From contig CAYUSL010000001.1 in the NCBI GenBank assembly GCA_964447125.1, forward strand, positions 1-55,250: a stretch of 55,250 nucleotides of DNA, given 5' to 3'. Shown here in pieces: positions 7,112-24,311 of the stretch. The notes under the pieces are model-generated. The model ran no database searches. It was given only the letters and a program-made list of their open reading frames with translations, and was not told the origin of the DNA. A program made the position numbers and the translations under genes. This DNA is from an uncultured bacterium (GTDB lineage Bacteria > JADJOY01). Every line of letters begins with the position of its first letter. Positions within the stretch are counted from its first letter, which is position 1.

Positions 7112-7117
7112 GCGAGC

Positions 7118-7708: not shown

Positions 7709-7724
7709 TCTCAGGGGAGGCGAC

Positions 7725-8105: not shown

Positions 8106-8113
8106 GCGTCGCC

Positions 8114-8592: not shown

Positions 8593-8609
8593 ATCGCGCG
8601 GAGGATCGG

Positions 8610-9413: not shown

Positions 9414-9458
9414 GCGGAACGCGTCCGTCGGTGCTTCGCAGGGGCGTGGTTTGCCGCG

Positions 9459-10832
9459 TCACGAGCGCTCGGAGCGTCCGAACACCCGGCTCGCCGGCAT
9501 GCGTGAGCGGATGTCGGCGAGGGTGCGCTCGTCGATCACGGTGATGCCCCGCTCGCGACAGTGCGTCTCGACGTTGCGCATCACCATCCCGCGCACGAAC
9601 GCCGGTATCTGTTTCATGCGCTCGAGCGCGGCCGGCTCCCAGCGCAACGCCGGGGCGGGAAGCTCTCCGTAGCCTTCGTCCCGGCGTGCGAGCGCGGCGA
9701 CGTGACGGAAGCGTCCCACCTCGTGATCGCAGAGTGGATCTGCCGCGCGGTAGTCGCCGGTCACCCCGTACGCGCGCGCCCGGCAACCGCCACAGGCCGC
9801 AGCCAGCTCACAGTCCCCGCACCGACCTCCGAGCGCGGTCCGGACTCGAATTCCCTTGAACAGCTCGGAGCTGCGCCAGACGTCCACCAGCGCGTCGTGA
9901 CGCAGGTTTCCGGCGAACACGGGCAAGTACGGGCATGGAGTGACGTCGCCGTTGGGACGGATTCCGAGATAGTGCGTTCCGGCCGGGCAGCCGCCGGCTC
10001 CGCCGGTATAGGTGCGTGGCAAGGCTGCGTCGGGATCGTGGGCGAGGGCGGTGCGCACGTGATGAGGTGCGCATTTCGCGTTGACCAGCATCTTCCCTTC
10101 GAATCGACGCTGTAGCTGGTGGAGACGCTCGAGCACGGTGTCGTACGTCGCGGGGTCGAGATCGGACACGTATTCGCCGCGGCCCGTGGGCACGAGGAAG
10201 TAGAGGTTCCAGACCTTGGCGCCGAGTCCATCGTGAGCCAACGCCGCGATCGCTTCGAGTGAGTCGACGTTGTGGCGCGCGACGGTGGTCTGCACCAGGA
10301 ACGGCAGACCCACGGAAGCCAGGATTCGCGCTCCCTCGACGGTGTTGGCGAAAGCGCCGCGCACGTTGCGAAACGCGTCGTGGCTGGTTGCGTCGGTGGC
10401 GTCGAGTGACAGGGCGAGACCGCGCGCGCCGCTCGCGGCGAGACGTGTGGCCACGTTCTCGGTGATCCGCACGCCGTTCGTTCCGACCACGACCCAGAGC
10501 CCGCGACTTGCGGCGTGCGCCACGATCTCCAGGATGTCGCGACGCAAGAGCGGCTCGCCGCCGGTCAAGATCGTCACGCACTCGGGCGCGAGCTGGGCGA
10601 TCTGGTCGGCGACCGCGAAGCATTCCGCCGTGGTGAGCTCGCTGCGGTCCGCGAACGCTTCGCTGGCGACGAGCGGGTTCGGTCCCGCATCGAGATAGCA
10701 GTGCTCGCAGGCCAGATTGCAGCGGTACGTGAGATTCCAGGACACCACGTACGGCCGCTCGAAGGCCGCCCCCGGCTCCATGGGGAGCGCGAGCGCCATG
10801 CCGGCTTCGAGCGTGCGGTTGGACGGCATCAT
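9459..10832 (-). CDS. Radical SAM/SPASM enzyme, AhbD/NirJ-like, with a C-terminal PCP_red (BchB C-terminal-like) domain
   Basis: 457 aa. Motifs: CNLACEHC (CxxxCxxC) within SWNLTYRCNLACEHCYLD; a SPASM-like Cys cluster GCPAG..PNGDVTPCPYL...CGDCELAAACGGCRARAY; and the C-terminal LRWEPAALERMKQIPAFVRGMVMRNVETHCRERGITVIDERTL, which matches the W..EA...L..IP.FVRG..R...E..A...G pattern of PCP_red. Confidence 0.85.
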   Translation of the reverse strand: MMPSNRTLEAGMALALPMEPGAAFERPYVVSWNLTYRCNLACEHCYLDAGPNPLVASEAFADRSELTTAECFAVADQIAQLAPECVTILTGGEPLLRRDILEIVAHAASRGLWVVVGTNGVRITENVATRLAASGARGLALSLDATDATSHDAFRNVRGAFANTVEGARILASVGLPFLVQTTVARHNVDSLEAIAALAHDGLGAKVWNLYFLVPTGRGEYVSDLDPATYDTVLERLHQLQRRFEGKMLVNAKCAPHHVRTALAHDPDAALPRTYTGGAGGCPAGTHYLGIRPNGDVTPCPYLPVFAGNLRHDALVDVWRSSELFKGIRVRTALGGRCGDCELAAACGGCRARAYGVTGDYRAADPLCDHEVGRFRHVAALARRDEGYGELPAPALRWEPAALERMKQIPAFVRGMVMRNVETHCRERGITVIDERTLADIRSRMPASRVFGRSERS

Positions 10833-10839
10833 GCAGCTC

Positions 10840-11283
10840 TCACATGCCGAAGAAATCCTTGGCCTCGTCCATCACGCGCTCGTCGATGCTGGCGTAGCCG
10901 CGTTCGCGGGCGAAGCGCTCGACGCCGGTGCGCGCCATCGGTCGCGCGAACGACGGCACGTTCTCGAGCCGGCGCTCGGCCTCCGAGGTCCACGTGAGCG
11001 CACCCGATGCTTCCGCGCTCGGTGAGCGTGGTTCGCCCTCGCCGCGCGCCAGGCCTGCGATGGGACATTTCGACGCCGCCGACTGGGCCGGTGGCGCATC
11101 ACCCGCGGGAGCGACGTTCACGCCCAGCGAGCCCACGACTTGGGTTTCGAACGGGTTCGTGAGCATCGCCATCTCGTAGCCGCACGTGGGACACGCGTAG
11201 ACGAGCGTGAGCGAGCCGCGGTCGGGGGGCTTGGTCTCGATCAGCCGCATCGGCGAGTCGCAAGGAACGCACAGGAACTTCAT
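10840..11283 (-). CDS. Zinc-ribbon protein with a C-terminal PCP_red domain
   Basis: 147 aa. N-terminal CVPC...CPTC (a four-Cys ribbon). C-terminal LTWTSEAERRLENVPSFARPMARTGVERFARERGYASIDERVMDEAKDFF. ATGA overlap with the upstream Mrp gene. Confidence 0.7.
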   Translation of the reverse strand: MKFLCVPCDSPMRLIETKPPDRGSLTLVYACPTCGYEMAMLTNPFETQVVGSLGVNVAPAGDAPPAQSAASKCPIAGLARGEGEPRSPSAEASGALTWTSEAERRLENVPSFARPMARTGVERFARERGYASIDERVMDEAKDFFGM

Positions 11284-12155
11284 GGGGCCTCCTCGAGTGC
11301 AGCGACGACACGATCGACGATGGCCGTCGTGGCGACGGCGGAAGGTAGTGCCGGCGGCGCGAACACCGACTCGCCGCGATCGCAGCGCGCAGCCAGCGCG
11401 GGATCGAACGGAATGCGGCCCAGCAAGGGCGTGCCGAGCATGCCGGCATCGTCACTGGGAAAGAGCGGCTGCACCTTGTCGCACTCGCTGCAGTGGTAGC
11501 CGCTCATGTTTTCGACGTAGCCGAGGATGCGATTGGGGGTCTTCGCGAGCGCCGCCAACGATCGCGCAACCACGCCACGCGCCAACGCGCTGGGAACGGT
11601 GACCAGCACGAACTGTACGGCTGGGCCGAGAAAATCTGCGTACTGCACGGCGCGCTCCGCGCCTGGCGGGAGGTCCACCACGAGCTCGTCCAGCTCCCCC
11701 CACGCGACCGTGCCCAGCAGCTCCTCGAGCAGCGTGAACTCGCGCGTGGCGCGCCACGTGTGCATCTCGCCCCGAGCCACGGAGTCGAACTGCAGCTCTT
11801 CGCCCTCGGGCACCAGCGCCCCGATGGACACCACGCCGATCCCGCTCGCGGTCCTGGGCAACGCGACGCGACCCTCGTCGGTGGGGATGAGCGGCCGCAA
11901 GCCGAGCCCCGTGAGGCGCGCTTGGCTGGGGCCGTTGAGGTCGGCATCGAGGATGGCGACGCGACGTCCCGTGTTGCTCAGGCCCGCCGCGAGCTGGGTC
12001 GCGACGGTGCTCTTTCCCACGCCGCCCTTTCCGGATGCGATGGCGAGCACGTGCCGGACGCTGCCGAGATTGCGGGCGCGCCGCTCGCGAATCGCGCGGA
12101 CCTGTCCGAGGACGTCCGAGCCGCCGTCGCCGACGATGTCGTGATAGCTCTTCAT
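11280..12155 (-). CDS. apbC: Mrp/NBP35 (ApbC) family Fe-S cluster carrier ATPase
   Basis: 291 aa. It has the deviant Walker A IASGKGGVGKST, ILDADLNGPS, and a CxxC in ENMSGYHCSECDK, typical of Mrp/NBP35 proteins. Confidence 0.85.
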   Translation of the reverse strand: MKSYHDIVGDGGSDVLGQVRAIRERRARNLGSVRHVLAIASGKGGVGKSTVATQLAAGLSNTGRRVAILDADLNGPSQARLTGLGLRPLIPTDEGRVALPRTASGIGVVSIGALVPEGEELQFDSVARGEMHTWRATREFTLLEELLGTVAWGELDELVVDLPPGAERAVQYADFLGPAVQFVLVTVPSALARGVVARSLAALAKTPNRILGYVENMSGYHCSECDKVQPLFPSDDAGMLGTPLLGRIPFDPALAARCDRGESVFAPPALPSAVATTAIVDRVVAALEEAP

Positions 12156-12170
12156 GCGTGTGCCGCGAGG

Positions 12171-13016
12171 CTACCCGGCGCTCACGTCGAGCGAGAACCG
12201 CGTCCATTCGCGCGTCACCCGAAAACCGATTCCGGTGAGGGTTTCGATGGGGAGCTCGTCGCGTCCGAGCCGCGGAATCCGGAGCCAGCGTGCACCGAGG
12301 CTCGCGAGCGTCGCCAGCAGCGGTGTCACGGCGGCCGAATCTCCGGGTGCGCCGAGGGCCGCGATGGAGATCTCCTCGCCCGACACGCTCGTCTCGTACA
12401 GGCAGAAGGCCTCGACGCGATCGGAGTGGATCGCCAAGGCCTGAAGTTGCGGCGCGCGGCGGGCCAGTGCTTCGGGTGCTCGCATCCACGACTCCCGGGA
12501 TCCCATGCTGCACGTCCTCGAAAGCTCGTCGAAGCCGACGGGAGCGGCGAGCTCGGGGAGGTGTCCCTCTTCTGCGCGCATGGCGTCGCCATCGAGGACG
12601 AGGTCCACGAGCGTCCCAGTCGCGCCGAATCCGCAGGCGGTGAGCAGCGCCCGGGTGGCCTGGTCGCGGGAGTCGATCTCCATCGTCAGGCGCGGCGGCC
12701 CCAAAATCGCGAGCTTTCGCGCGAGCGATTCGAGAAGGTGGCGCGCGTGTCCGCGGCGTCGCTGCGCGGGGTGCACGCCCAGGGCGAGGATGCAGGTTTC
12801 CGCCGCTCGCTTGGCTGCGAGCAAGACGCCGATGGGGCCGCGCTCGTCGAAGGCCAGCATCGAGCTCGACGTCCAGAAATCGACGAGACGGCCGCGCCGC
12901 TTCAGCACTTCGGGCTCGAGGGGGGGCAGGCCTGGGATCTGCGATGCCAGGCAGTCGTTGTACGCGTGCGCGAGCGCGCCGACGTCGTCGGTCCGGCAGA
13001 ACCGGTAGCCGGGCAT
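12171..13016 (-). CDS. GNAT-family N-acetyltransferase (possibly a tandem GNAT fold)
   Basis: 281 aa. It shows the acetyl-CoA motif A-like LALGVHPAQRRRGHARHLLESL. Its size is compatible with two GNAT lobes. Confidence 0.65.
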   Translation of the reverse strand: MPGYRFCRTDDVGALAHAYNDCLASQIPGLPPLEPEVLKRRGRLVDFWTSSSMLAFDERGPIGVLLAAKRAAETCILALGVHPAQRRRGHARHLLESLARKLAILGPPRLTMEIDSRDQATRALLTACGFGATGTLVDLVLDGDAMRAEEGHLPELAAPVGFDELSRTCSMGSRESWMRAPEALARRAPQLQALAIHSDRVEAFCLYETSVSGEEISIAALGAPGDSAAVTPLLATLASLGARWLRIPRLGRDELPIETLTGIGFRVTREWTRFSLDVSAG

Positions 13017-13062
13017 CGTGGCGTGGGCTAGAGCGGGCGGCGCGCTGCGATGGCGATGCGGG

Positions 13063-15117
13063 TCAGTCGCTGGCGCCAGGGCTGCCCTGTCGCATCGCGT
13101 GCAGCGCGCCCATGATGCCCACCTCGTTGAGGGGCGCGGCTGCAGCGCCCGACAGGCCGGCTGCGGTCGACGGCGCCACCGTGGCGGCGCGACGGGCGGC
13201 CTCGGGATTCGCGGCGTAGCCCTGGATCATCTCCGCCATCGCCTGGCGGCTCGCGGCGATCGCTTCCTCGGTCAGCACCAGGTCGATCACCACGCTGTTC
13301 CGCTCTTCCGCGAGCGCCTCGATCCGTTCCTGCGTCTTGCTTCGCATGAAACCCGCAGGGACGCGGAACAGGCGCTGCACCGCGTCCTCCGTCCATTTTC
13401 GCGTCGAGAAGAGCGGGTTCTTCTTGTCGTCGCGCGCCACGAGCTTCTTGCCGTCATCGAGCGTCAGCGCCTCGTCTCGGCTCGAAGATCCGTTCGGCTC
13501 GCGATCGCCGAGCTCGATCGGCGTTCCCAGCTCGTCCTCGATGATGCTGCGCGCGAGCTCCAGCGTCACGGTATTGAGCCGCTTGAGCCGCACCGACTTC
13601 TCGATTCGGGCTTTGGTGCGGCGGCGTTGGTACGGCTCCTTGAGCGTCCACAGCGCACGTTTGGCATCCTGAGTCCAGGTGAGCGAGCGTCCGTCGTAGG
13701 TGGTCTCGCTCTCCGCACCGCCTTCCATGCGGATGATCTCGGCCACCTGTGCTGCGCTGATCCGATCGAACACGCTGGAGCCGCACACGGCACACTTCGC
13801 TGGCTCCTCTTCGGTCGCGGTCACGCCGCAGCTCCGGCAGATCGCCACCGCGTGATCCTTGGCGCGCTCGAGGACCAACGCCTCCGCGAACTTGGTGGTC
13901 GCCTCGGCGGTGGCCTTGGGCATGTACCGATCCATGGCCTCGTCGAGAAGCGAGCTGGTGATGACGCTGTGGCCCTGCTCGACGGCGAGGCGGTAGATCG
14001 CGGTGCGCGCGATGCCCTGCACGAGTGGCGGGACGTTCTTCATGCGCCCTTCCGCTTCCGGCGTCCAGCGGATGGTCTCCTCGGCCTTCACGTCGAGCTC
14101 GGGATGCTCGAGGCGCGTGGTGAGCAGCACGTTGCAAGGCGCCTGGCGCAGCATGTTTTCCGTGTTGCTGCCGAGCGCACGCTCGTCGGCGCCGCTGTGC
14201 ACGCCGATGCGGCCGAGCACCAGGAGCCACGGACGAGTCTTGCGCACGTGATCCAGCAGTTTCTGGAATGCCTTGCCGTCGAGCAGGGTGCGGGTGATCT
14301 CGAAACCCGCGGCGTGGGCCATGTGCTCGGCGACCTTGAGGTGCGACTCGTAGATCTGCGCCAGGCCGGTGTCGATGATCTCTTCGTGGAGCTGGTTCTG
14401 CTCCTCGAAACGAAACACCTTCGCCGCCTTCTCGGTGAGAACGTCGACCACGCTGGCGAAGACCGAGTAGTGCAGGTAGGGATCGTAGACGGCCACGGCT
14501 TCGACCTGCTTGCCGAGCTGCTTCGCCAGGTCGATGGCCGTCATCAGCGCCCCGAAGGATTGGGGGCTGCCGTCGATCCCCACCAGGATCGTGTCGCTCG
14601 TCTGCGCGCGGGTTCCGTCTTTCTCCGGCACGTCCTTGATGACGAGCACGTCGCGCGCCGTGCCACGCACCACGCGCTCGCACACCGACCCGATCTGGCT
14701 GTCGCGCACGCGTCCCAGGCCCAGCGCGCCGAGGACGATCAGGCCGTAGTCGTGCGCTTCGATGTCGCGCAGCAGCTCGACCGAGTGCTTGCCGTCCATC
14801 ATGCGCGGCTCGAACGGAAGCCCGGCCTCGGCGCAGACCTCGGCCATCGGAGCGAGGTAGCTGTCGGAGATGAGCTTGAGGCCCATCGTGATCAAGCTGT
14901 CGTGAATCTTGCGTTGGCGATCGAGCTCGTTCTCCTCGAGGTACTCCTCGGGAAGCGTGAACTCCATCTGTTTGAAGCGATAGTCGTGCATGCGCGCGGC
15001 ATAGACGTGGCAGCCCACCATCCTGCTCGTGAATGCCTTGCCGAGCGCGACACCGAGTGCAATCGCCTCGTTCGAGTGGGGCGAGTTGTCCACCGGTACG
15101 TAGATCGTGTCGTACAT
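13063..15117 (-). CDS. Tandem universal-stress-protein (USP) domains fused to three PCP_red domains and a zinc ribbon
   Basis: The start is trimmed from the 824-aa ORF to the ATG at 15117 (MYDTIYVPVDNSPHS), which has GGAGGG 5 nt upstream and lies downstream of the 15153 stop of the upstream gene. USP signatures appear twice (IYVPVDNS...GLIVLGALG...VLVIK and ILVGIDGS...LLVLGRIG...NVLL). PCP_red-like repeats are IRWTPEAEGRMKNVPPLVQGIARTAIYRLAVEQGHSVI, LTWTQDAKRALWTLKEPYQRRRTKARIEKSVRLKRLNTV and RKWTEDAVQRLFRVPAGFMRSKTQERIEALAEERNSVVI. The zinc ribbon is CRSCG-x12-CAVCG. Confidence 0.8.
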   Translation of the reverse strand: MYDTIYVPVDNSPHSNEAIALGVALGKAFTSRMVGCHVYAARMHDYRFKQMEFTLPEEYLEENELDRQRKIHDSLITMGLKLISDSYLAPMAEVCAEAGLPFEPRMMDGKHSVELLRDIEAHDYGLIVLGALGLGRVRDSQIGSVCERVVRGTARDVLVIKDVPEKDGTRAQTSDTILVGIDGSPQSFGALMTAIDLAKQLGKQVEAVAVYDPYLHYSVFASVVDVLTEKAAKVFRFEEQNQLHEEIIDTGLAQIYESHLKVAEHMAHAAGFEITRTLLDGKAFQKLLDHVRKTRPWLLVLGRIGVHSGADERALGSNTENMLRQAPCNVLLTTRLEHPELDVKAEETIRWTPEAEGRMKNVPPLVQGIARTAIYRLAVEQGHSVITSSLLDEAMDRYMPKATAEATTKFAEALVLERAKDHAVAICRSCGVTATEEEPAKCAVCGSSVFDRISAAQVAEIIRMEGGAESETTYDGRSLTWTQDAKRALWTLKEPYQRRRTKARIEKSVRLKRLNTVTLELARSIIEDELGTPIELGDREPNGSSSRDEALTLDDGKKLVARDDKKNPLFSTRKWTEDAVQRLFRVPAGFMRSKTQERIEALAEERNSVVIDLVLTEEAIAASRQAMAEMIQGYAANPEAARRAATVAPSTAAGLSGAAAAPLNEVGIMGALHAMRQGSPGASD

Positions 15118-15152
15118 GAACCCTCCGAACCCTTGCGCACGCACGCGCCGGT

Positions 15153-16829
15153 TCACACCGTGCTGCGGCGTCGCCGCGCCACCGCGATCACCACCAGCTC
15201 GACTGCGAGAACCGAGCCCGCCGCCTTCGCCATCGGACCAAGCGGAGACTCGTGGGCGCCCGCTTCCACGTAGAGGTAATACCAGGCTGTGAGCCCACGC
15301 TTGTTGCCGCGCTCTCGATTGAACCCGTCCCAGACGCTGAACGCGACCGGCGTGAACTTGCCTTCCTCGAGATGGGCGCCTCCGCGACTGCGCAGGGGAC
15401 GGACGAACGTCACCGTCCAGCGGCCCTTCTCGTATTGCTTCGTAACCTGCAGGTCGCCGCTGCCCTGGGGTTCCAGTGCTTCGTATCCCTTGCCCACGAA
15501 TTGCAGCGGCTTCGAGTGGGCGAGGTCTACGAACCAAAGGTCGACTGCATGCCCCGAGTCGCCGAAGATGAAATACGGGCGTCGGATGCTGGTCTCTGCG
15601 TCGAGCGGAAACTGGATCGCCACCGCATCCGAGAACTCGGTCTCGGGAGTCTGGGCCGCCGCGCTCGGCTGAGACTCGCCTTCGCCCCAGAAGTCGTCGC
15701 CGCCCGACGCCGGTTTCGTTGCCGCGGGAGCATCTGCGGCCTCGTCGCCCCAGATGTCACCAGATTCCGCGCTGCTGGCCTTGGCTTGCCCGCCGAAAGG
15801 ATCGTCCTTCCAATCCGGGACCTTCAGCGCTGGATCGTTCTTGCCGCTGGTCTCGGCGCGCATGTCGCTCCAACGCAGACGCACGGCCAGATCGGTGCCG
15901 TTGTGGACCGCCGTCACCTCGATCCCGTTGCAGGACGGATGGAACTCGCGCCCAGGTTGGGAGATCTGGCCGGCCACCGGAAAGAACGCGGGCTCGGCTG
16001 CGGCGAAGAGCTCGTCGGCCTTCGCGAGGTCGAGCTCGCCCGTGATGCGCGCGACGCGTGCCAGGTTGGAGTAGTTGGGCTGCTCGCGCCCGGAGAGCGA
16101 CGCGATGAAATCGACGAGCTGCCAACGCTGCTCTTCGCTCAACGCCTCCTGGAATGCCGGCATCGGCGTCCCGGTGAGGCCGGTGGTGATGGCGCGAAAG
16201 ATGTCGGCGCGCGTCGCGCCGCCGCGGAACGTCCAGGGCCGTTCGAGGTTGGCGGGATGGAGGTGGTTCCCCCAGTCGTCCTTGAGGGTCGGTGCGGACG
16301 GGCCGTCGCCGCGCCCCTCCACGCCGTGGCAGCGCGCACAGCCGGTGTCGGCGTAGAGCTGCTTGCCCTGCTCGGCACGCTCTTTCGAGAACGCCGGCGG
16401 CGCGGGCAACGAAACGGGATCCGAATTCGACTCGGCGTCGGCGAAGCGCGGTGAAAAACTCTTCACGTAGAAGGCGAGCGAACGAACCTCGTCCTCCTTG
16501 AAGCTCGGCCAGGCGGGCATGGTGCTGTAGGGCATCCCGTGGCGGATGATTCGCTCCAGGTCCGCTGTGGTCGGCACCGTGCCGCCGGGTGTGCTGCGGA
16601 TCTTGAACTTGCCCTTGGTGAAGTCGCGTGGCTTGGGCTTGAGATGGGCTGCGGCGACCCCTTCGCCATCTCCCTTCTCGCCGTGGCATTGGCTGCAGTA
16701 CTTGTCGTAAAGCTGCTTGCCGGCGTCCCGCTGCGCCGGCGTTCCGAGATCCGGCGTCGCGGCCGCGGCGAGGCGTAGCCCCGCAACCAGGCTGAGGCCA
16801 CAGAGTGCCGAGACACGCAGCGCTTTCAT
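15153..16829 (-). CDS. Diheme cytochrome c fused to an ethylbenzene-dehydrogenase gamma/DOMON-like (EB_dh) domain, with a C-terminal membrane anchor
   Basis: The start is trimmed to the ATG at 16829 (MKALRVSALCGLSLVAG, a signal peptide), which overlaps the upstream stop as ATGA. Heme motifs are CSQCHGEKGDGEG and CARCHGVEGRGDG. The C-terminal region ...VDLWFVDL...GRWTVTFVRPL...FSVWDG...ERGN.RGLT.WYYLYVE is typical of the EB_dh heme-b domain. The terminal hydrophobic helix is SVLAVELVVIAVARRRR. Confidence 0.75.
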   Translation of the reverse strand: MKALRVSALCGLSLVAGLRLAAAATPDLGTPAQRDAGKQLYDKYCSQCHGEKGDGEGVAAAHLKPKPRDFTKGKFKIRSTPGGTVPTTADLERIIRHGMPYSTMPAWPSFKEDEVRSLAFYVKSFSPRFADAESNSDPVSLPAPPAFSKERAEQGKQLYADTGCARCHGVEGRGDGPSAPTLKDDWGNHLHPANLERPWTFRGGATRADIFRAITTGLTGTPMPAFQEALSEEQRWQLVDFIASLSGREQPNYSNLARVARITGELDLAKADELFAAAEPAFFPVAGQISQPGREFHPSCNGIEVTAVHNGTDLAVRLRWSDMRAETSGKNDPALKVPDWKDDPFGGQAKASSAESGDIWGDEAADAPAATKPASGGDDFWGEGESQPSAAAQTPETEFSDAVAIQFPLDAETSIRRPYFIFGDSGHAVDLWFVDLAHSKPLQFVGKGYEALEPQGSGDLQVTKQYEKGRWTVTFVRPLRSRGGAHLEEGKFTPVAFSVWDGFNRERGNKRGLTAWYYLYVEAGAHESPLGPMAKAAGSVLAVELVVIAVARRRRSTV

Positions 16830-17647
16830 TCTTTGGCGCCGTGCTCTTCGAGAGCTCTGGGTTTCATGCCGGTGAAGTCGTACAGAAAGAGGAGGGCTTC
16901 CCACATCTCGTCGTTGCTCAGGAACTTCTCCCAGGGCGGCATCGCCGAGTCCCCAGGCCCGCCCTCGTCGGGCATGCCCGGACCACCCTTCGAGACGCGC
17001 CAGAAGAAAAAGGACGACTGAAAGTTGGGTAGCACGTTGGGGTCGGTGAAGTTGGTCGGGAGTGGGTTGAAGCCGTGTGCGAAGACTCCATCACCGCCCA
17101 GACCGTCCCCGTGACAATAGAAGCAGTTTTGATAGTACACGGTTCGGCCGCTGGTTAGGTGGCGCTGATACGCCTCGGGCTCCGTGTCCTTGAGGTGGCG
17201 AAAGGGGTTTTCGGTCTTGATCAGATCGACCGCAGCGTCGTGAACGGTGATGCTGGTCGGTGGCGAGGGGTGGATCGTCCGGGCGAAGAACGGTGCCTCG
17301 ACCGGCGCCGTCCGGCTTCGATACACGTCGTAGGCGACGAACGCGGGAATCGCCAGCGTCACCAGCGCCAACGCGGGTGTGTAGCGGGGCTCGGTGAGGA
17401 GCTTGCCGATCGGGCCGACCACCGCTTCGGTCCGATCGCGGGAGCTGAACGCGTAGATGAAGAGCGCGAGCGTGGTGATCGACAGGTAGATTTGGACGGC
17501 CGAGGCGGGAACCGGTGTGCTGAACGCCCAATTCACGAACACGAACACCGAGAGCCAGCAGGCCCCCAGCCAAACGAGAAGCGCGGGTTTTGCAAACCGC
17601 AGAGCGAGCAGCACCGCGACGATGCCGGCGATGACGATGAAATTCAC
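16826..17647 (-). CDS. Polytopic membrane domain fused to a class-I monoheme cytochrome c
   Basis: 273 aa, GTG start. It has 3-4 N-terminal helices, then NCFYCHGDGLGGDG (CxxCH), and SAMPPWEKFLSNDEMWEALLFLYDF (the Met ligand region). Confidence 0.75.
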   Translation of the reverse strand: MNFIVIAGIVAVLLALRFAKPALLVWLGACWLSVFVFVNWAFSTPVPASAVQIYLSITTLALFIYAFSSRDRTEAVVGPIGKLLTEPRYTPALALVTLAIPAFVAYDVYRSRTAPVEAPFFARTIHPSPPTSITVHDAAVDLIKTENPFRHLKDTEPEAYQRHLTSGRTVYYQNCFYCHGDGLGGDGVFAHGFNPLPTNFTDPNVLPNFQSSFFFWRVSKGGPGMPDEGGPGDSAMPPWEKFLSNDEMWEALLFLYDFTGMKPRALEEHGAKE

Positions 17648-17689
17648 GGGGCGTGCTCTCGGTCCTTCGTCGTTGCGACTCGCAGCTGG

Positions 17690-18181
17690 TCAGTCCGCCT
17701 TCGATCGGTGCTTGTGCGTGGTCTTGAGCGTCACGTTGGGCGTGCCGCCCTGGCTCTGAAGCCAGGCCATGACGGCGAGGATTTCTTCGTCCGTGAGGCC
17801 GATTGGCGGCTTGTTGATGGTCGGCATGCCTTTGTTGAAGCCGGGCACGATGTAGGCATCCGGCTCGTAGAGCGATTCGGAGAAGTAGTCGATGTCGCTG
17901 TAGCCCGGCTTGCGCGTCTTGGCGCGTTCGCCGACACCTTGCAGATCGGGATAGCGGAGCGCACCCGTCTTGCCGATGGTGTGACAGGTCAGGCACATGC
18001 CTTTGTCGTGGGCGATCTCGTCGCCGATCTTCACGAGATCGGCGGTGGTCATGTCCTTGGTGATCTTCACGTCCGCTGGTGGCTGAAGTTCCTTCTGCGG
18101 CACGAGCTGCCCGACGTACGTGTAGAAACCCGTCGTTGCCACCACCAAGACCAGCACGTTGACCACCGGCGGCACCTTCAC
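17690..18181 (-). CDS. Membrane-anchored monoheme cytochrome c
   Basis: 163 aa. The GTG start overlaps the cydA-like stop as GTGA. It has one N-terminal helix, CLTCH, and a downstream GMP (Met ligand candidate) ... EEILAVMAWL. Confidence 0.75.
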   Translation of the reverse strand: MKVPPVVNVLVLVVATTGFYTYVGQLVPQKELQPPADVKITKDMTTADLVKIGDEIAHDKGMCLTCHTIGKTGALRYPDLQGVGERAKTRKPGYSDIDYFSESLYEPDAYIVPGFNKGMPTINKPPIGLTDEEILAVMAWLQSQGGTPNVTLKTTHKHRSKAD

Positions 18182-20037
18182 GCGGCACCTCCGTGGGGGC
18201 CGTGCCCGGTGCCGCCCTCACGGTTTCCCCAATCGGGGGCGTGCGAGAGGCTCGCGAGCCAGAACACCATGCCGATCAGCGCAAAGAAGATCAGCACGGT
18301 GACCGATACGACCTTGGTCGCGAAACCGAGTGTCGGGGTGAAGGCGTCGACCGAGGTGTCGCGGATGACACCATAGACGTGCCAGTGCTGGCGCAGACCG
18401 GAGCGCACGTAGCCCATGAGCCCCATGAGCCACGTGAACGTGACCGCGATGAAGATCAGGATGTATTGAGAGAGCGGGGGCATGCGCCCCCAGCGCGTCT
18501 CACCCGTCGACTGCGCACCGCGATAGAGCGGCACGTCGATGACGGTGATGCTCACCATTGCCGCCAACACCGCGAGCACCTGGTACGCCGAGTAGCCGAT
18601 TCGCACCTTCGCTTCGACGAAATAGCCGTGAATGCCGAAGAAGATCACCCACGCGGCAGCGGCGAAGAAGAGCGCGAATTGGATGAGGTTTGCCGTGGTC
18701 GCCCACGGTTGCACCGAGCGCTTTCCGCTGCGCCTGTAGAGCAGGAAGCTCATGAACGTCGTCAGGATGAGGATGTTCACCGCAGTGTTCTTCGCCGACA
18801 TCACGCCGAGGAAGCCGAGCATCGGATGCGTCGATCCGCGCATCGCCTTCACTTCCGACGCCGTGGAGATGATCGAGCGGGGCGTGGCCCACACCGCGAA
18901 GCACAGCGCGATCGTGATGAGCAGGTACTTGATGAATTTCTGGAACGGCTGCGCGCCCTCGATTCGTCCCATGCCCAGCCACAGATAGGCGTTGGCTGCG
19001 AGGAACAAGTTGCCGATGAGCACCGCCTGGATGATGAAGAGCCATGAGAACGCTCCGCCCATCATCATGATGCCGAGTGCCTGGTTGAAGCCGTAGATCT
19101 CGCGCGCCAGGTAGTAACCGGCGAAGGGCAGAGGCAGGAACGCCAGGATGGCCACGAAGTTGCCGATGTAGCCCATCCAGTCGTAATGGGCGCGCTCTTC
19201 GTCGGTCTTGGCTCCCAGGTATTGGAACGCCGCATACGCCGCCGCGACCGAACCGCCGAACGCGACGTTGGCGATGAGGCGGTGAACGTTGATGGGCATC
19301 CAGGTGAAGTTCATCGCGGCTTCCATCACGTTCAACACCGCGCCGGAGTCGGAAACGCCGGCGGGCGACATCATGAACGAGACCCACGAGTTCGCGATGA
19401 ACATGATCGCGGTGCCCACCAGGTTGAGGCCCACGCCGAGGCCGATGTGCACCAGCGGATGAAACTTTCCCCAGCCGTAGTAGTAGCTGTAGAGGAAGAA
19501 CGCTTCCGCGAAGAAGAGCCCGACGTAAGGCGCGAAGGTCGGGCTGAAGACGCTCATCAAGTAAGTCGTGAACTTCGGATAGAGCGCGATCAGCAGGAAC
19601 GTCAGCATCGCGCCGAAGGTGGCGGTGATCGAGAACGACACCGACAAGAGCTTCGTGAACTCGTACGCGAGCCGGTCGTAACGTGTGTCCTTGGTGGCGT
19701 AGCCGATGATCTCGATGATGATCGCGAACATCGGCACCGCGAGCACGAACGCGGCGAAGAGCAGGTGAAGCTGCGCTGCCACCCACACGGCGACTCGGCT
19801 GCCGACCACCGGGAACTTGCGGTACTCGACTTCCTTGTAAGGCGTGGCCTTGGCGTCGGCCGCTTGCTTCTGGGCGAGGTCGTGCTCGGCTTGCTGGCGC
19901 GGCGTCGTCGCCTCGCTGAGGCCGCGCGTCGGTGGGTGGTAGGCGCGGTGCTCGAGCTGCATCCAGACGCCCACGAGCGAGCCGAGCCCGAGCACCACGG
20001 CGATCACCGCCATCGGCACGAGCACGCGAGGCTTCAC
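18178..20037 (-). CDS. Cytochrome bd superfamily subunit-I-like (CydA-like) protein, about 14 helices, no Q-loop-sized insert
   Basis: The start is trimmed to the GTG at 20037, which has GGAGAG 3 nt upstream and overlaps the actE1 stop as GTGA; the ATG at 20013 is an alternative. The segment VWVAAQLHLLFAAFVLAVPMFAIIIEIIGY...LLSVSFSITATFGAMLTF...YVGLFFAEAFFLYSYYYGWGKF...NVHRLIANVAFGGSVAAAYAAFQYL is colinear with CydA helices 1-5. It includes the helix-1 His and helix-5 His positions and a Glu aligned with E. coli E107. No hydrophilic stretch longer than about 30 aa occurs after helix 1. Confidence 0.75.
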   Translation of the reverse strand: MKPRVLVPMAVIAVVLGLGSLVGVWMQLEHRAYHPPTRGLSEATTPRQQAEHDLAQKQAADAKATPYKEVEYRKFPVVGSRVAVWVAAQLHLLFAAFVLAVPMFAIIIEIIGYATKDTRYDRLAYEFTKLLSVSFSITATFGAMLTFLLIALYPKFTTYLMSVFSPTFAPYVGLFFAEAFFLYSYYYGWGKFHPLVHIGLGVGLNLVGTAIMFIANSWVSFMMSPAGVSDSGAVLNVMEAAMNFTWMPINVHRLIANVAFGGSVAAAYAAFQYLGAKTDEERAHYDWMGYIGNFVAILAFLPLPFAGYYLAREIYGFNQALGIMMMGGAFSWLFIIQAVLIGNLFLAANAYLWLGMGRIEGAQPFQKFIKYLLITIALCFAVWATPRSIISTASEVKAMRGSTHPMLGFLGVMSAKNTAVNILILTTFMSFLLYRRSGKRSVQPWATTANLIQFALFFAAAAWVIFFGIHGYFVEAKVRIGYSAYQVLAVLAAMVSITVIDVPLYRGAQSTGETRWGRMPPLSQYILIFIAVTFTWLMGLMGYVRSGLRQHWHVYGVIRDTSVDAFTPTLGFATKVVSVTVLIFFALIGMVFWLASLSHAPDWGNREGGTGHGPHGGAA

Positions 20038-20633: not shown

Positions 20634-20637
20634 GCGC

Positions 20638-23600: not shown

Positions 23601-23652
23601 CGACGCTGCGCCAGTAGGCGGCGCTTCGCGCGGGGCCTGGTGAGCTCGTCAT
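20638..23652 (-). CDS. actB: ACIII subunit ActB (molybdopterin-oxidoreductase-like domain plus Fe-S ferredoxin domain), copy 1
   Basis: About 1004 aa. The ATG at 23652 overlaps the actA1 stop as ATGA, the same arrangement as in copy 2. It has the Tat-like SRRHMLGLTGATLSIAGLTAC. Fe-S motifs are CTGCNACVTACQAEN, CMQCENAPCEQVCP, CIGTRYCSNNCPYKVRRFN, CTYCLQRI and ACQQACP. It is colinear with the ActB at 27970. Confidence 0.9.
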   Translation of the reverse strand: MTSSPGPARSAAYWRSVAALESSRGAESAASPEFPAGADSPPDVVSRRHMLGLTGATLSIAGLTACRRPLEKIVPYVKPPEEILPGVPRRYATTMPFGRSAYGLVVESHEGRPTKIEGNELHPATRGASSAWMQAAIYDLYDPDRAGPVRKSGAPSSWTDFDGFWRSQAASLRASEGAGLAVLGEPFTSPTLARLRTRFLEVYPRARWATYEPLSDEHQRSAVAAVTGRALEALVDYQRARVVVAIDADPFGTDLETVRNTGGFAARRAVLPATDHETSSAPDLNRLYVVESSFTATGGLADHRLRLRRGRMPAVVALLARELGLGAPAVSGEDVDARWIAAAAKDLLANRGRSVVVAGAHLPPAVHAWVLAINAALGNLGTTLTHRAPRHAARSVLGELTALVSAIQSGEVSTLVILGGNPAYDAPSDLDFTKAVAKVTTCIRAGAKVDETSALAHWHLPLAHFLESWGDAAAADGTLSVVQPLVLPLHGARSVAELLGAFAADPAKAELTSGYDLVRETWRGILGDSELDSRWERVLHDGLLEASATANELESLPAGAAAPATLTDSLPPPTAEAIELTFVPSFTVYDGRFANISWLQELPDLTTKLTWGNAALLSYATARALGVTDEDLVVIAVGDAKIEIPVVISPGQAEHTVTIALGYGREAAGRVGSMVGADAYRLRTTKTLAGAASARIERLSRTAELAITQDHWIIDELGAKERDRRVPTLIREATLAEFQHEPEFAKEMVEHPPLESLWQERAYADGPQWGMTIDLNVCTGCNACVTACQAENNIPAVGRDQVRRGRELHWIRVDRYFRGDPDDPEAMVVQPIPCMQCENAPCEQVCPVAATVHDDHGLNAMVYNRCIGTRYCSNNCPYKVRRFNYYNFTKDTPETLKMAMNPNVTVRARGVMEKCTYCLQRISAGRQQAKLENRALADGDVRTACQQACPARAIEFGDIRDPKSRVAVAKTSPRNYDLLAELNTKPRTSYLARIRNPNPDLDKA

Positions 23653-24311
23653 CGATGGCACCCCGAGCAGTCGACGGGAGGCTCTAGGTGCTTCTCGGCG
23701 ATGATCCGTTCGCCGGCGCTGCGCTGATCAGGCGGCGCCTGCCAGCGCATGTTCGTCACCTGCTCGGTAGGACGCAGGTGTGGCGCTGGATCGCGATGGC
23801 AGTCGAGGCACCAACTCATGCTGAGAGGCTCGGCTTGCGTGACGACCTCCATCTGATCGACGCGACCGTGGCATTCGACGCAGCCGACACCTGCGCGCAC
23901 GTGCATTGCGTGATGGAAGAACGCGAAGTCCGGCAGGTTGTGCACGCGCACCCACTGCATGGGCTGGCCGGATGCGTAGCTGGCACGGATGGGCGCCAGA
24001 AGCGCGCTATCGCGTTTCACCACCGCGTGGCAGTTCATGCAGACCTGCGTGGGTGGAACGTTCGCAACCGCCGATCGCTCGACCGACGCGTGACAGTACT
24101 TGCAGTCGATGCCGAGATCGCCGGCGTGCAAGCGATGACTGTACGGGACCGGCTGTCGGGGGGCGAAGCCGACGTCCGTGTAACGCGGCGAGAAGTAGTA
24201 CCAGACGACGCCGATGATCAGGGTCGTGGCGACGAGACCACCGGCCGCCAATGCCAGCGCGGCTCGATTGCTCGATTCCGGAAACACCTGCGCCAAGCGC
24301 TCGACCCCCAA
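23649..24311 (-). CDS. actA: ACIII subunit ActA (membrane-anchored pentaheme cytochrome c), copy 1
   Basis: Five CxxCH motifs (CKYCH, CMNCH, CVECH, CLDCH, CSGCH) and one N-terminal helix. The ORF-track start at 24311 is TTG. A TTG at 24296 would give MAQVF..., parallel to the MAQIF... of copy 2, so the start is uncertain. Confidence 0.85.
   Translation of the reverse strand: MGVERLAQVFPESSNRAALALAAGGLVATTLIIGVVWYYFSPRYTDVGFAPRQPVPYSHRLHAGDLGIDCKYCHASVERSAVANVPPTQVCMNCHAVVKRDSALLAPIRASYASGQPMQWVRVHNLPDFAFFHHAMHVRAGVGCVECHGRVDQMEVVTQAEPLSMSWCLDCHRDPAPHLRPTEQVTNMRWQAPPDQRSAGERIIAEKHLEPPVDCSGCHR

What the first reader, a model, noticed from the sequence alone, without database searches (positions are those of the whole stretch)
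9459..15117. Five PCP_red (BchB C-terminal-like) domains in three proteins, with an AhbD/NirJ-like radical SAM enzyme, an Mrp Fe-S carrier and a GNAT: a candidate tetrapyrrole-handling cassette
**Observed.**
- The W-x-x-E/D-A-x-x-R/L-x-x-V/I-P-x-F/L-V/A-R/Q-G... pattern occurs once at the C-terminus of the radical SAM protein.
- It occurs once in the 147-aa Zn-ribbon protein.
- It occurs three times in the USP protein.
- The organism shows no sign here of (bacterio)chlorophyll genes.

**Established.**
- PCP_red is defined from the C-terminal region of the B subunit of dark protochlorophyllide reductase. As I recall the published structure, that region contributes to enclosing the tetrapyrrole substrate.
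- AhbD- and NirJ-type radical SAM/SPASM enzymes act on heme-pathway tetrapyrroles.
- The enzymology of heme d formation for bd oxidases is not well established.

**Inferred.**
- The cassette could modify or deliver a heme-type cofactor, such as a d-type or other modified heme, for the adjacent bd-like protein or the EB_dh domain.
- Mrp would supply Fe-S clusters to the radical SAM enzyme and/or ActB.
- This is speculative, but the domain repetition is striking.
Basis: partly seen in the sequence, partly recalled or inferred. Interest (0 to 1): 0.8.

Follow-up and report, generated by a model that had tools for sequence, protein, structure and literature searches.

The report
AhbD-like heme enzyme with PCP_red partners
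A widespread, unstudied gene set, built around a radical-SAM enzyme that resembles the oxygen-independent heme synthase AhbD and three proteins that share a small domain otherwise known from chlorophyll synthesis, sits next to respiratory cytochrome genes in several bacterial phyla and most likely completes or handles heme for them.

Summary
Pfam finds PCP_red (PF08369) once in the radical SAM/SPASM protein, once in the 147-aa Zn-ribbon protein and twice above threshold in the tandem-USP protein. A third, degenerate USP copy scores 17 bits (E 0.0055).

The gene set is a real unit:
- Mrp, Zn-ribbon-PCP_red and rSAM-PCP_red stay together in 72 of 73 genome loci.
- USP-PCP_red follows the cytochrome c/EB_dh gene of an ActAB plus cytochrome bd-like (OR-N) operon within 400 nt in 34 of 36 loci.
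- Relatives only 35-46% identical (Nitrospinota, Binatia, Nitrosomonadales, metagenomes) keep the USP-PCP_red/rSAM-PCP_red pair.
- Those relatives often sit beside a bd-like gene (11 of 35 loci) or a HemY/CgoX-type porphyrinogen oxidase (8 of 35).
- 48 control loci with AhbD-like enzymes lacking PCP_red show none of these neighbours except one HemY.

The enzyme has the exact AhbD cysteine spacing. Its nearest models are AhbD and NirJ2, but it scores below their cut-offs.

Best reading: an oxygen-independent, AhbD-type enzyme acting on coproheme or heme, with its own Fe-S supplier and PCP_red partner proteins. A special heme made for the bd-like oxidase is possible but untested. GNAT is not part of the core.

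The parts
9459..10832 (-). Radical SAM / full-SPASM enzyme of the AhbD/NirJ2 clade with a C-terminal PCP_red domain (457 aa). CX3CX2C starts at Cys38. Eight SPASM cysteines: 254, 282, 300, 338, 341, 347, 350, 368.
   Evidence: Pfam Radical_SAM, SPASM and PCP_red. NCBIfam AhbD 293.6 bits, NirJ2 275, TIGR04053 265, all below their cut-offs. Cysteine spacing equals the published AhbD full SPASM motif (PMC10452713). More than 6000 homologues; the top 120 have the same architecture.
9516..9641 (-). PCP_red domain of the radical SAM protein (aa 398-439)
   Evidence: PF08369, 42.9 bits. Aligns to ChlB 459-500 of 2XDQ_B. W398, A402, P410, F412, R414 and E422 are conserved even in relatives of 35-46% identity.
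10840..11283 (-). Small protein (147 aa): N-terminal four-Cys Zn-ribbon/rubredoxin-like domain, disordered linker with an invariant Cys73-Pro74, C-terminal PCP_red domain
   Evidence: PF08369, 62.2 bits. C5, C8, C31, C34, C73 and P74 are invariant in 30 homologues. AlphaFold gives two folded domains and a linker with pLDDT below 50. Foldseek TM 0.78 to 2KRU. More than 5000 homologues.
10858..10992 (-). PCP_red domain of the Zn-ribbon protein (aa 98-142)
11062..11067 (-). Cys73-Pro74 (K-C-P-I here, K-C-P-F in most homologues), resembling a heme-regulatory CP motif
   Evidence: Invariant in 30 of 30 close homologues. Present in L101 and L110; absent in L087, L109, L117, L119 and L126. CP motifs bind ferric heme in flexible loops (PMC10377097). 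The assignment here is inference.
11280..12155 (-). Mrp/NBP35/NUBPL-type P-loop ATPase (291 aa) with Walker A GKGGVGKS and a conserved CxxC. Its stop overlaps the start of the next gene by 4 nt.
   Evidence: PF10609, 182.5 bits. MrpORP 171.8 and ApbC 113.4 bits, both below cut-offs. Conserved residues in 57 orthologues. Kept with the two downstream genes in 72 of 73 loci.
12171..13016 (-). GNAT-family acetyltransferase (281 aa). A lineage-specific member of the cassette, not part of the core.
   Evidence: PF00583, 29.5 bits. Follows USP-PCP_red in Acidobacteriota-type loci. Absent from 35 distant loci.
13063..15117 (-). Tandem USP protein (684 aa): two Usp domains with ATP-type motifs, PCP_red copy 1, a four-Cys Zn-ribbon, degenerate PCP_red copy 2, PCP_red copy 3
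   Evidence: Usp 121.9 bits and PCP_red 79.6 bits. Separate copies scored. G-x2-G-x9/10-G-S at aa 130 and 302. Conserved in 38 orthologues. Lies within 400 nt after the EB_dh gene in 34 of 36 loci.
13936..14067 (-). USP protein, PCP_red copy 1 (aa 351-394)
   Evidence: 49 bits.
13555..13677 (-). USP protein, PCP_red copy 2 (aa 481-521), degenerate
   Evidence: 17.2 bits, E 0.0055, below the gathering score.
13261..13395 (-). USP protein, PCP_red copy 3 (aa 575-619)
   Evidence: 35.6 bits.
15153..16904 (-). Context: di-heme cytochrome c fused to an EB_dh (heme b) domain. Last redox gene of the upstream operon.
   Evidence: Pfam. Neighbour of the cassette.
18178..20037 (-). Context: cytochrome bd subunit I-like membrane protein without a quinol-site region (OR-N type); 619 aa as called in public records
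   Evidence: PF01654, 80 bits over aa 155-388 of the long ORF. Aligns to CydA helices 1-5 with the His and Glu positions kept. Public gene call is 619 aa. Family description in 10.1101/2021.01.16.426971.
20638..24311 (-). Context: ActB-like (Fe-S/molybdopterin-fold) and ActA-like (multiheme) genes that start the operon
   Evidence: Pfam. Same order in L084-L086.
25557..26990 (+). HemY-type porphyrinogen oxidase (477 aa), closer to B. subtilis CgoX than to M. xanthus PgoX. Divergent from the operon start, 1.2 kb away.
   Evidence: TIGR00562, 228.6 bits against a cut-off of 97.85. 3I6D 203 bits versus 2IVD 162 bits. Homologues lie directly beside rSAM-PCP_red in L089, L091-L094, L097, L101 and L120, and inside the cassette in L015.

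Best explanation
The region encodes an oxygen-independent heme-completion module. Its catalytic part is a radical SAM/SPASM enzyme that belongs to a distinct sister clade of AhbD (heme b synthase).

Shown:
- Its closest profile matches are AhbD and NirJ2.
- It always carries at least one C-terminal PCP_red domain.
- It travels through evolution with a tandem-USP protein that carries several PCP_red domains, and often with an Mrp-type ATPase and a Zn-ribbon-PCP_red protein.
- The module sits next to heme-rich respiratory operons (an ActAB plus cytochrome bd-like plus cytochrome c/EB_dh operon, or aa3 oxidase with alternative complex III).
- In several lineages it sits directly next to a HemY/CgoX-type porphyrinogen oxidase.

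Inferred:
- The enzyme takes iron-coproporphyrin III from the coproporphyrin-dependent pathway (CgoX, then ferrochelatase). It converts two propionates to vinyls by 5'-deoxyadenosyl radical chemistry and yields heme b without O2 or H2O2. A closely related reaction on the same kind of substrate is also possible.
- Mrp loads the three [4Fe-4S] clusters.
- The PCP_red three-helix bundles are the shared handle. They either hold the tetrapyrrole or dock the USP and Zn-ribbon partners onto the enzyme.
- The four-Cys knuckles of the partners may shuttle the electron that the oxidative decarboxylation releases.
- The Cys-Pro motif in the linker of the small protein may bind the heme product.
- The ATP-binding USP domains may gate the activity with energy or oxygen status.

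Co-location with a putative low-oxygen oxidase would fit a heme supply route for conditions in which the peroxide-dependent enzyme ChdC cannot work.
For: Similarity to AhbD:
- Profile scores: AhbD 293.6, NirJ2 275, TIGR04053 265 bits, against at most 158 bits for NirJ and at most 149 bits for peptide maturases. The same ranking holds for distant members L087, L088 and L089.
- C254-x27-C282-x17-C300-x37-C338-x2-C341-x5-C347-x2-C350-x17-C368 matches the AhbD full SPASM motif CX20-33CX17CX36-37CX2CX5CX2CX17-35C (PMC10452713).
- Of the 68 nearest PCP_red-less relatives, 25 match the AhbD model at E <= 1e-115 (best 1.5e-149), 11 match TIGR04053 and 3 match NirJ2.
- In a neighbour-joining tree of the catalytic cores, the PCP_red-bearing enzymes form one clade: 25 tips plus 2 without a detected PCP_red domain.

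Synteny in 80 genome loci:
- The trio is kept in 72 of 73 loci. USP-PCP_red lies within 10 kb in 35 of 56, and Cox genes in 31 of 56.
- Gaps between Mrp, the Zn-ribbon gene and the rSAM gene are always under 260 nt (n = 77). The gap from EB_dh to USP is at most 400 nt in 34 of 36 loci.

Distant lineages:
- 24 of 24 representatives at 34-45% identity have Radical_SAM + SPASM + PCP_red.
- Contexts in Nitrospinota, Binatia, Nitrosomonadales and an unnamed MAG keep USP-PCP_red next to the enzyme.
- In 35 loci with a PCP_red-bearing enzyme: USP-PCP_red 23 (21 adjacent), Mrp 12, bd-like 11, HemY 8 (7 adjacent).
- In 48 loci of similar length whose AhbD-like enzyme lacks PCP_red: 0, 0, 0 and 1. Fisher p = 5e-12, 9e-6, 3e-5 and 4e-3. 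The loci are not phylogenetically independent, so these values are only indicative.

HemY:
- Every neighbour tested exceeds the TIGR00562 cut-off.
- The window copy is closer to B. subtilis CgoX than to M. xanthus PgoX.

Literature:
- AhbD occurs in organisms that have the coproporphyrin pathway and lack the other Ahb enzymes, as an O2-independent alternative to ChdC (PMC13564367).
- Acidobacteria and Nitrospirota carry coproporphyrin-pathway genes (PMC10740692, PMC10991733).
Against: - The enzyme fails the curated AhbD cut-off by a wide margin (293.6 against 500 bits). It forms its own clade, so a different reaction is quite possible.
- A characterised AhbD relative of similar distance, Gms (36% identical to M. 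barkeri AhbD), acts on lipids and not on heme (PMC11214058).
- Canonical AhbD needs no PCP_red, USP or Zn-ribbon partners. If the reaction were plain AhbD chemistry, the elaborate and strictly conserved partner set would be unexplained.
- No ferrochelatase or other heme-pathway gene apart from HemY was seen in about 170 loci.
- HemY adjacency is found in a minority of loci (8 of 35 distant ones, 1 of the Acidobacteriota-type loci, plus the window).
- Whether these genomes also have ChdC could not be checked.
- Tetrapyrrole binding by PCP_red has not been shown for any protein.
- The enzyme model has only moderate confidence (pLDDT 70) and its structural matches are generic.
Confidence: 0.5

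Rival explanations
1. The module makes or delivers a non-canonical heme, for example a d-type chlorin or another side-chain-modified heme, specifically for the OR-N cytochrome bd-like protein and/or the periplasmic EB_dh heme domain. The AhbD-like enzyme performs a new radical modification, and the multi-PCP_red USP protein acts as the carrier.
For: - USP-PCP_red is effectively the last gene of the bd-like operon: within 400 nt of the EB_dh gene in 34 of 36 loci, and in 3 of 3 operons reached from the bd-like side.
- bd-like and EB_dh genes are next to the enzyme again in lineages only 37-41% identical: L088, L109-L111, L116-L119 and L126. That is 11 of 35 loci against 0 of 48 controls.
- The enzyme is a separate clade that fails the AhbD cut-off.
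- The partner set is unnecessary for canonical AhbD.
- bd-like OR-N proteins keep the ligand of the active-site heme (10.1101/2021.01.16.426971).
Against: - The module also occurs with no bd-like gene within 8-10 kb, beside aa3 oxidase genes (L012-L014, L099, L102) or neither (L087, L018, L033 and others).
- Adjacency to HemY points to a step inside heme synthesis and not to a late tailoring step.
- Nothing is known about which hemes OR-N proteins bind.
- No chemistry is suggested by the sequence beyond the AhbD pattern.
Confidence: 0.2
2. The radical SAM/SPASM enzyme modifies a protein and not a tetrapyrrole. The substrate would be one of its PCP_red partners or a subunit of the neighbouring respiratory complex. 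PCP_red would serve as the recognition or docking domain, as the PqqD-like element does in peptide maturases, and the small Zn-ribbon protein would be substrate or chaperone.
For: - Most characterised SPASM enzymes act on peptides or proteins. Structural neighbours of the model are SkfB, PqqE, anSME and SuiB.
- The same small domain occurs in the enzyme and in both partners. Gene order is very tight, with overlapping stop and start codons.
- The small protein has a long disordered linker with invariant residues.
Against: - Profile scores for peptide maturases are half those for AhbD and NirJ2.
- The cysteine spacing is the AhbD one.
- HemY adjacency is unexplained under this reading.
- The Foldseek hits only reflect the shared radical SAM/SPASM fold, since no AhbD structure is in the PDB.
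- The invariant Cys-Pro is absent from several distant small-protein homologues.
Confidence: 0.12
3. The enzyme is a lipid-modifying relative of AhbD, like the tetraether cross-linking enzyme Gms. The link to respiratory genes would then be incidental or concern membrane adaptation.
For: - Gms is 36% identical to M. barkeri AhbD, and homologues exist in Acidobacteria (PMC11214058).
- TIGR04053 scores nearly as high as AhbD (265 against 294 bits).
Against: - There is no N-terminal extension: the radical SAM motif starts at residue 38, whereas Gms has a 100-aa COG4001 domain.
- No tes or mss-like second radical SAM gene lies in the neighbourhoods, with one unrelated exception at the edge of L088.
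- The conserved neighbours are cytochromes, HemY and an Fe-S carrier.
Confidence: 0.03

Closest known systems
AhbD / NirJ2 (radical SAM heme b synthase, TIGR04545 / TIGR04055), including its reported use as an O2-independent substitute for ChdC in coproporphyrin-pathway organisms
   Same: - Radical SAM CX3CX2C motif plus a full eight-Cys SPASM motif with identical spacing.
- Best profile matches.
- About 36-44% identity to PCP_red-less relatives, many of which score as AhbD.
- Occurs without ahbA/B/C. In some lineages it lies next to a CgoX-type gene, as expected for an AhbD working in the coproporphyrin pathway (PMC13564367).
   Different: - Scores about 200 bits below the equivalog cut-off.
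- Forms its own clade.
- Always carries one to four C-terminal PCP_red domains.
- Is accompanied by USP-PCP_red, and often by Mrp and Zn-ribbon-PCP_red.
- Is embedded in respiratory gene clusters and not in heme-biosynthesis clusters.
C-terminal PCP_red domain of BchB/ChlB of dark-operative protochlorophyllide oxidoreductase (PF08369; PDB 2KRU, 2YNM_D) and the stand-alone cyanobacterial protein Asr4154 (2L09)
   Same: - Same three-helix fold and sequence signature (W-x2-[ED]-A ... P-x-F-[VA]-R ... E ... G).
- 37-38% identity; TM 0.68-0.78.
- The host enzyme is again an Fe-S enzyme that acts, or probably acts, on a tetrapyrrole, and it is paired with a SIMIBI-class P-loop ATPase (BchL there, Mrp here).
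   Different: - No nitrogenase-like domain and no chlorophyll pathway.
- The domain is repeated up to four times per protein and spread over three proteins.
- Its role is unknown in both settings.
OR-N family cytochrome bd-like proteins with ACIII-like electron-donor modules (Murali, Gennis and Hemp, bioRxiv 10.1101/2021.01.16.426971)
   Same: The neighbouring operon fits the description: a CydA-like protein that lacks the quinol site, found in operons with alternative electron donors.
   Different: The main text of that paper contains no occurrence of 'radical'; its supplement was not read. No paper was found that links OR-N operons to these accessory genes.
Mrp/NBP35/ApbC Fe-S carrier ATPases (MrpORP, ApbC)
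   Same: Walker A, the conserved CxxC and the NUBPL Pfam family.
   Different: - Core domain only (291 aa).
- Below both equivalog cut-offs.
- A dedicated, syntenic partner of one radical SAM enzyme.
Gms, the AhbD-like GMGT synthase (PMC11214058)
   Same: An AhbD-like SPASM enzyme that acquired an extra domain and, in the Gms case, a new substrate.
   Different: The extra domain is N-terminal COG4001 in Gms and C-terminal PCP_red here. Gms clusters with lipid genes; this enzyme clusters with cytochrome and HemY genes.

Membership tests
AhbD heme b synthase (TIGR04545) | Radical SAM CX3CX2C cluster motif | tested here: met
   C38-x3-C42-x2-C45, invariant or nearly so in alignments A1 and A2.
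AhbD heme b synthase (TIGR04545) | Full SPASM motif CX20-33CX17CX36-37CX2CX5CX2CX17-35C (two auxiliary 4Fe-4S clusters), as in methanogen and sulfate-reducer AhbD | tested here: met
   The regular expression matches residues 254-368 exactly. The motif is taken from PMC10452713.
AhbD heme b synthase (TIGR04545) | Whole-protein score at or above the curated equivalog cut-off (500 bits) | tested here: not met
   293.6 bits. Distant members score 244-324 bits.
AhbD heme b synthase (TIGR04545) | Conversion of Fe-coproporphyrin III to heme b | not testable with these tools
   Needs an enzyme assay.
AhbD heme b synthase (TIGR04545) | Genomic link to heme biosynthesis (ahbABC, or coproporphyrin-pathway genes) | tested here: inconclusive
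   No ahbA/B/C-like neighbours. HemY/CgoX-type gene adjacent in 8 of 35 distant loci, in L015 and near the operon in the window.
PCP_red domain (PF08369) | HMM score above the gathering threshold (32.5 bits) | tested here: met
   42.9, 62.2, 49 and 35.6 bits for four copies; the fifth scores 17.2 bits.
PCP_red domain (PF08369) | Three-helix fold of the BchB C-terminal domain | tested here: met
   Model of the small protein against 2KRU: TM 0.78, rmsd 1.0 A.
Dark-operative protochlorophyllide reductase subunit B (TIGR01278) | Nitrogenase-like Oxidored_nitro body and a whole-protein score above cut-off | tested here: not met
   Only the last 50-60 residues match: 36-43 bits against a cut-off of 490.
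Radical SAM/SPASM peptide maturases (PqqE, MftC, sactipeptide and related) | Score above the family cut-off; a peptide-recognition (PqqD-like) domain or an adjacent precursor peptide | tested here: not met
   PqqE 133.6 bits against 381; MftC 149.4 against 265; others lower. No other Pfam domain was found.
Gms GMGT synthase | N-terminal COG4001 extension of about 100 aa and clustering with tes/mss | tested here: not met
   The radical SAM motif begins at residue 38. Neighbours are cytochrome, Mrp, USP and HemY genes. Criteria from PMC11214058.
Mrp/NBP35/ApbC Fe-S carrier | Deviant Walker A and a conserved CxxC that bridges a 4Fe-4S cluster | tested here: met
   GKGGVGKS and C-S-E-C are conserved in 57 orthologues. 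PF10609, 182.5 bits. Equivalog cut-offs are not reached.
Universal stress protein, ATP-binding type | Usp domain with G-x2-G-x9-G-[ST] | tested here: met
   PF00582, 121.9 bits, two domains. Motifs at aa 130 and 302; the second has x10.
Heme regulatory (Cys-Pro) motif | Cys-Pro in a flexible region that binds ferric heme | tested here: inconclusive
   C73-P74 is invariant in 30 of 30 close homologues, in a linker with pLDDT below 50. It is absent from five distant homologues. Binding is untested.

The most novel reading that the evidence does not exclude
PCP_red is a general tetrapyrrole-carrier or hand-over domain. On this reading, the module is a dedicated cytoplasmic assembly line made of the AhbD-like enzyme with one to four PCP_red domains, the multi-PCP_red USP protein and, often, Mrp and the Zn-ribbon-PCP_red protein. 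It would make a heme species other than plain heme b, or would load heme in a chaperoned, ATP-gated way, for the OR-N cytochrome bd-like/EB_dh respiratory complexes. That would identify the missing enzymology for the active-site heme of a whole branch of the bd superfamily.
Probability: 0.17. Interest if true: 0.85.

Novelty: new variant of a known kind. Interest (0 to 1): 0.62.

Why it matters
- The family is large: more than 6000 enzyme homologues and more than 5000 small-protein homologues in public data. It is abundant in soil and sediment Acidobacteriota and present in Nitrospinota, Binatia and Nitrosomonadales. Public records give only generic or automatically assigned names ("radical SAM protein", "AdoMet-dependent heme synthase", "PCP reductase family protein").
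- If the enzyme is an oxygen-independent heme synthase with its own partner proteins, it fills the gap of how these coproporphyrin-pathway bacteria finish heme when O2 or H2O2 is scarce.
- It would also give the first functional setting for PCP_red outside chlorophyll synthesis.
- It offers a genetic handle on the uncharacterised OR-N cytochrome bd-like oxidases.
- Practical point: PF08369 is used as a phototrophy marker in a genome trait screen (PMC12815261). These proteins show that the domain is common in non-phototrophs.

Tried and rejected
- Structure search with the enzyme model (pLDDT 70) returned only generic radical SAM/SPASM enzymes (SkfB, PqqE, anSME, viperin). No AhbD structure is in the PDB, so this did not discriminate.
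- Promoter and terminator scans over 9300-25000 gave no more sites than shuffled sequence. Operon structure therefore rests on gene spacing only.
- Literature searches for PCP_red/PF08369 and for bd-like plus ACIII plus radical SAM found no description of this cassette.
- I tried to verify that the PF08369 stretch itself covers protochlorophyllide in DPOR. The papers held say only that a BchB C-terminal helix covers the cavity and name Leu426, which lies upstream of the domain. The primary structure papers were not available. The claim stays unverified.
- De novo clustering of all neighbours in 80 loci found no further conserved gene. The genes inserted between GNAT and Mrp (MFS transporter, beta-propeller, amidohydrolase, kinase) are lineage-specific and unrelated.
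- The idea that Mrp is an ATP-driven reductase analogous to BchL was considered. It rests only on the shared ATPase class and on weak hits (E about 1e-4) to BchL, NifH and CfbC. I kept it as a footnote and not as an explanation.

Full report
**Anatomy**

The window has about 66% G+C. Positions 9459-24311 of the minus strand carry one tightly packed run of genes, in this order:
- ActA-like multiheme cytochrome
- ActB-like Fe-S protein
- cytochrome c
- a cytochrome bd subunit I-like membrane protein
- two cytochromes c
- a di-heme cytochrome c fused to an EB_dh domain
- the five genes of the finding

Gaps between the five genes and their upstream neighbour are 35, 46, 15, -4 and 7 nt. The last gene ends 45 nt from the convergent Cox2 gene of an ACIII plus aa3-oxidase cluster (1247-9413, plus strand). 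A second ACIII plus oxidase cluster lies at 27308-39755.

**Check of the observation**

Pfam results:
- Radical_SAM + SPASM + PCP_red in the 457-aa protein
- PCP_red in the 147-aa protein
- NUBPL/Mrp ATPase
- GNAT
- two Usp domains plus PCP_red in the 684-aa protein

Scanned separately, the three USP repeats score 49, 17.2 and 35.6 bits against a gathering score of 32.5. Four of the five copies are therefore formally significant. The fifth is a degenerate copy whose position is conserved in orthologues.

The AlphaFold model of the small protein has three parts: a folded beta-rich four-Cys domain, a disordered linker, and a three-helix domain. The helical domain superposes on the NMR structure of the BchB PCP_red domain (2KRU, TM 0.78, rmsd 1.0 A).

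**The enzyme**

- NCBIfam ranks AhbD (293.6 bits), NirJ2 (275) and TIGR04053 (265) first. NirJ, AhbC and all peptide maturases score at or below 158. Every score is below its family's curated cut-off.
- The eight SPASM cysteines are spaced exactly as in the full SPASM motif published for AhbD enzymes with two auxiliary clusters (PMC10452713).
- A search of 1.84 billion cluster representatives shows that the Radical_SAM + SPASM + PCP_red architecture persists down to 34-45% identity. All 24 representatives tested have it, some with several PCP_red copies.
- In a neighbour-joining tree of catalytic cores, these proteins form one clade. The clade is separate from the PCP_red-less relatives.
- Of 68 such PCP_red-less relatives, 25 match the AhbD model at E <= 1e-115.
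- The enzyme is therefore a distinct sister family of AhbD, defined by one ancestral domain fusion. It is not an AhbD equivalog.

**Conservation of the gene set**

In 80 loci from the species-level genome collection, nearly all Acidobacteriota MAGs (Vicinamibacteria, Thermoanaerobaculia, Holophagae):
- The trio Mrp, Zn-ribbon-PCP_red and rSAM-PCP_red is present in 72 of 73 loci with enough flank. Gaps are always under 260 nt.
- USP-PCP_red and GNAT lie upstream in 35 of 56 loci, always in the order bd-like, cyt c, cyt c, cyt c/EB_dh, USP-PCP_red, GNAT.
- The USP gene lies within 400 nt of the EB_dh gene in 34 of 36 loci.
- Unrelated lineage-specific genes are often inserted between GNAT and Mrp.
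- A convergent aa3 oxidase/ACIII cluster follows in 31 of 56 loci.
- Of 47 loci with both flanks, 41 have one or both neighbours.
- Starting from the bd-like protein, three further operons all end with USP-PCP_red and GNAT.

**Other phyla**

Contexts of distant members:
- Nitrospinota: cyt c, DUF420, Mrp, Zn-ribbon-PCP_red, USP-PCP_red, rSAM-PCP_red.
- An unnamed MAG: rSAM-PCP_red and USP-PCP_red divergent from cyt c, cyt c/EB_dh and bd-like.
- Nitrosomonadales: cyt c, USP-PCP_red, rSAM-PCP_red, HemY.
- Binatia: cyt c/EB_dh, cupredoxin protein, cyt c, USP-PCP_red, rSAM-PCP_red.

A metagenome scan gave 80 more loci, which I annotated with the window proteins and a PCP_red HMM. Counts for 35 loci whose enzyme bears PCP_red, against 48 loci of similar length whose AhbD-like enzyme lacks it:

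| Neighbour | With PCP_red (n = 35) | Without PCP_red (n = 48) |
|---|---|---|
| USP-PCP_red | 23 (21 adjacent) | 0 |
| Mrp | 12 | 0 |
| Zn-ribbon-PCP_red | 7 | 0 |
| bd-like | 11 | 0 |
| EB_dh | 6 | 0 |
| HemY | 8 (7 adjacent) | 1 |

Fisher tests give p from 5e-12 to 4e-3. The loci are not independent, so these numbers only indicate direction. The pair USP-PCP_red plus rSAM-PCP_red is the cross-phylum core. Mrp and the small protein are frequent additions. GNAT is confined to the Acidobacteriota type.

**The heme link**

- All HemY-type neighbours tested pass the TIGR00562 cut-off.
- The window has its own copy at 25557-26990, 1.2 kb beyond the operon start. It is closer to B. subtilis CgoX (3I6D, 203 bits) than to M. 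xanthus PgoX (2IVD, 162 bits).
- In L015 a HemY gene sits inside the cassette, between EB_dh and USP-PCP_red.
- Reviews state that Acidobacteria and Nitrospirota carry coproporphyrin-pathway genes (PMC10740692, PMC10991733).
- They also state that AhbD occurs in coproporphyrin-pathway organisms that lack the other Ahb enzymes, as an O2-independent substitute for ChdC (PMC13564367).
- This makes coproheme to heme b the most economical reaction for the enzyme.

**Partner proteins**

- Both USP domains carry the ATP-type glycine motif.
- Both partner proteins have a four-Cys knuckle pair. The one in the USP protein gives a weak match to the rubredoxin-like domain of rubrerythrin (E 8e-4).
- The small protein has an invariant Lys-Cys-Pro-Phe/Ile in its disordered linker in 30 of 30 close homologues. 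The motif recurs in two distant homologues but is missing in five others. Cys-Pro motifs in flexible loops bind ferric heme (PMC10377097). Here that is only a lead.
- Mrp keeps its Walker A and CxxC.

**What remains open**

- The enzyme is as far from AhbD as Gms is, and Gms is a lipid enzyme (PMC11214058). Similarity alone therefore does not fix the substrate. Context does most of the work.
- Canonical AhbD needs none of these partners.
- The evidence against that as the only role is twofold: the module occurs without a bd-like gene nearby, and it is adjacent to a biosynthetic gene (HemY).
- A role of PF08369 in holding tetrapyrroles could not be verified from the literature held.

**Verdict**

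This is a real, conserved and uncharacterised module. It is best filed as a new variant of the AhbD-type heme synthase system, and it gives a plausible first non-chlorophyll role for PCP_red.

Noticed in passing
window 25557-26990 (+): HemY-type porphyrinogen oxidase (TIGR00562, 228.6 bits). It is closer to B. subtilis CgoX than to M. xanthus PgoX, and lies divergent from the start of the ActAB/bd-like operon. Homologues lie directly next to rSAM-PCP_red in other phyla.
   Followed up: yes
window 4478-5233 (+): The protein between ActF and Cox1 combines an amicyanin-like type-1 copper (cupredoxin) domain (aa 105-189; 5FC9, E 7e-6) with a CarboxypepD_reg domain. It is a candidate electron carrier between ACIII and the oxidase. 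Homologues recur beside USP-PCP_red in 9 of 35 distant loci.
   Followed up: partly
window 1247-9413, 20638-24311 and 27308-39755: The window holds three ActAB-type modules: two complete ACIII plus aa3-oxidase clusters (the second with an SCO1 gene at 35267-36121), and one in which a cytochrome bd-like protein takes the place of ActC.
   Followed up: partly
window 11062-11067 (-), Cys73-Pro74 of the Zn-ribbon protein: An invariant K-C-P-F/I motif in a disordered linker resembles a heme regulatory motif. It is conserved in 30 of 30 close homologues and in L101 and L110, but absent from five distant homologues.
   Followed up: partly
window 18178-20262 (-): The longest ORF of the bd-like gene (694 aa) overlaps the upstream cytochrome c gene. 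Public gene calls give 619 aa, so the true start is probably near 20037.
   Followed up: no
L092 2450-15866: In this lineage the module is preceded by a large HEAT/PBS-lyase-like repeat protein and the cupredoxin protein. It is followed by HemY, a PAS histidine kinase and a sigma-54 response regulator. The USP protein has four PCP_red copies and the enzyme has three.
   Followed up: partly
L087 6377-7057: A DUF420 membrane protein and a cytochrome c precede Mrp in the Nitrospinota version of the module. As I recall, DUF420 is the family of CtaM, an aa3-oxidase assembly factor.
   Followed up: no
L121-L170 (metagenome loci): AhbD-like enzymes without PCP_red often sit next to a second radical SAM gene, as in AhbC/AhbD-type pairs. 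One of them (L166) has a HemY gene 1.4 kb downstream, which fits the reported use of AhbD in coproporphyrin-pathway organisms.
   Followed up: no
PF08369 in general: A trait-mapping study uses PF08369 among its marker families to pre-screen genomes for phototrophy (PMC12815261). The thousands of PCP_red proteins in non-phototrophic Acidobacteriota and other phyla would count as hits in such a pre-screen.
   Followed up: no
window 24573-25532 (+): An ORF between the operon start and HemY has a weak TlpA-like thiol:disulfide interchange match (E 9e-4). It may be a cytochrome or copper maturation factor. A shorter 103-aa ORF in the same frame region has a predicted membrane helix.
   Followed up: no
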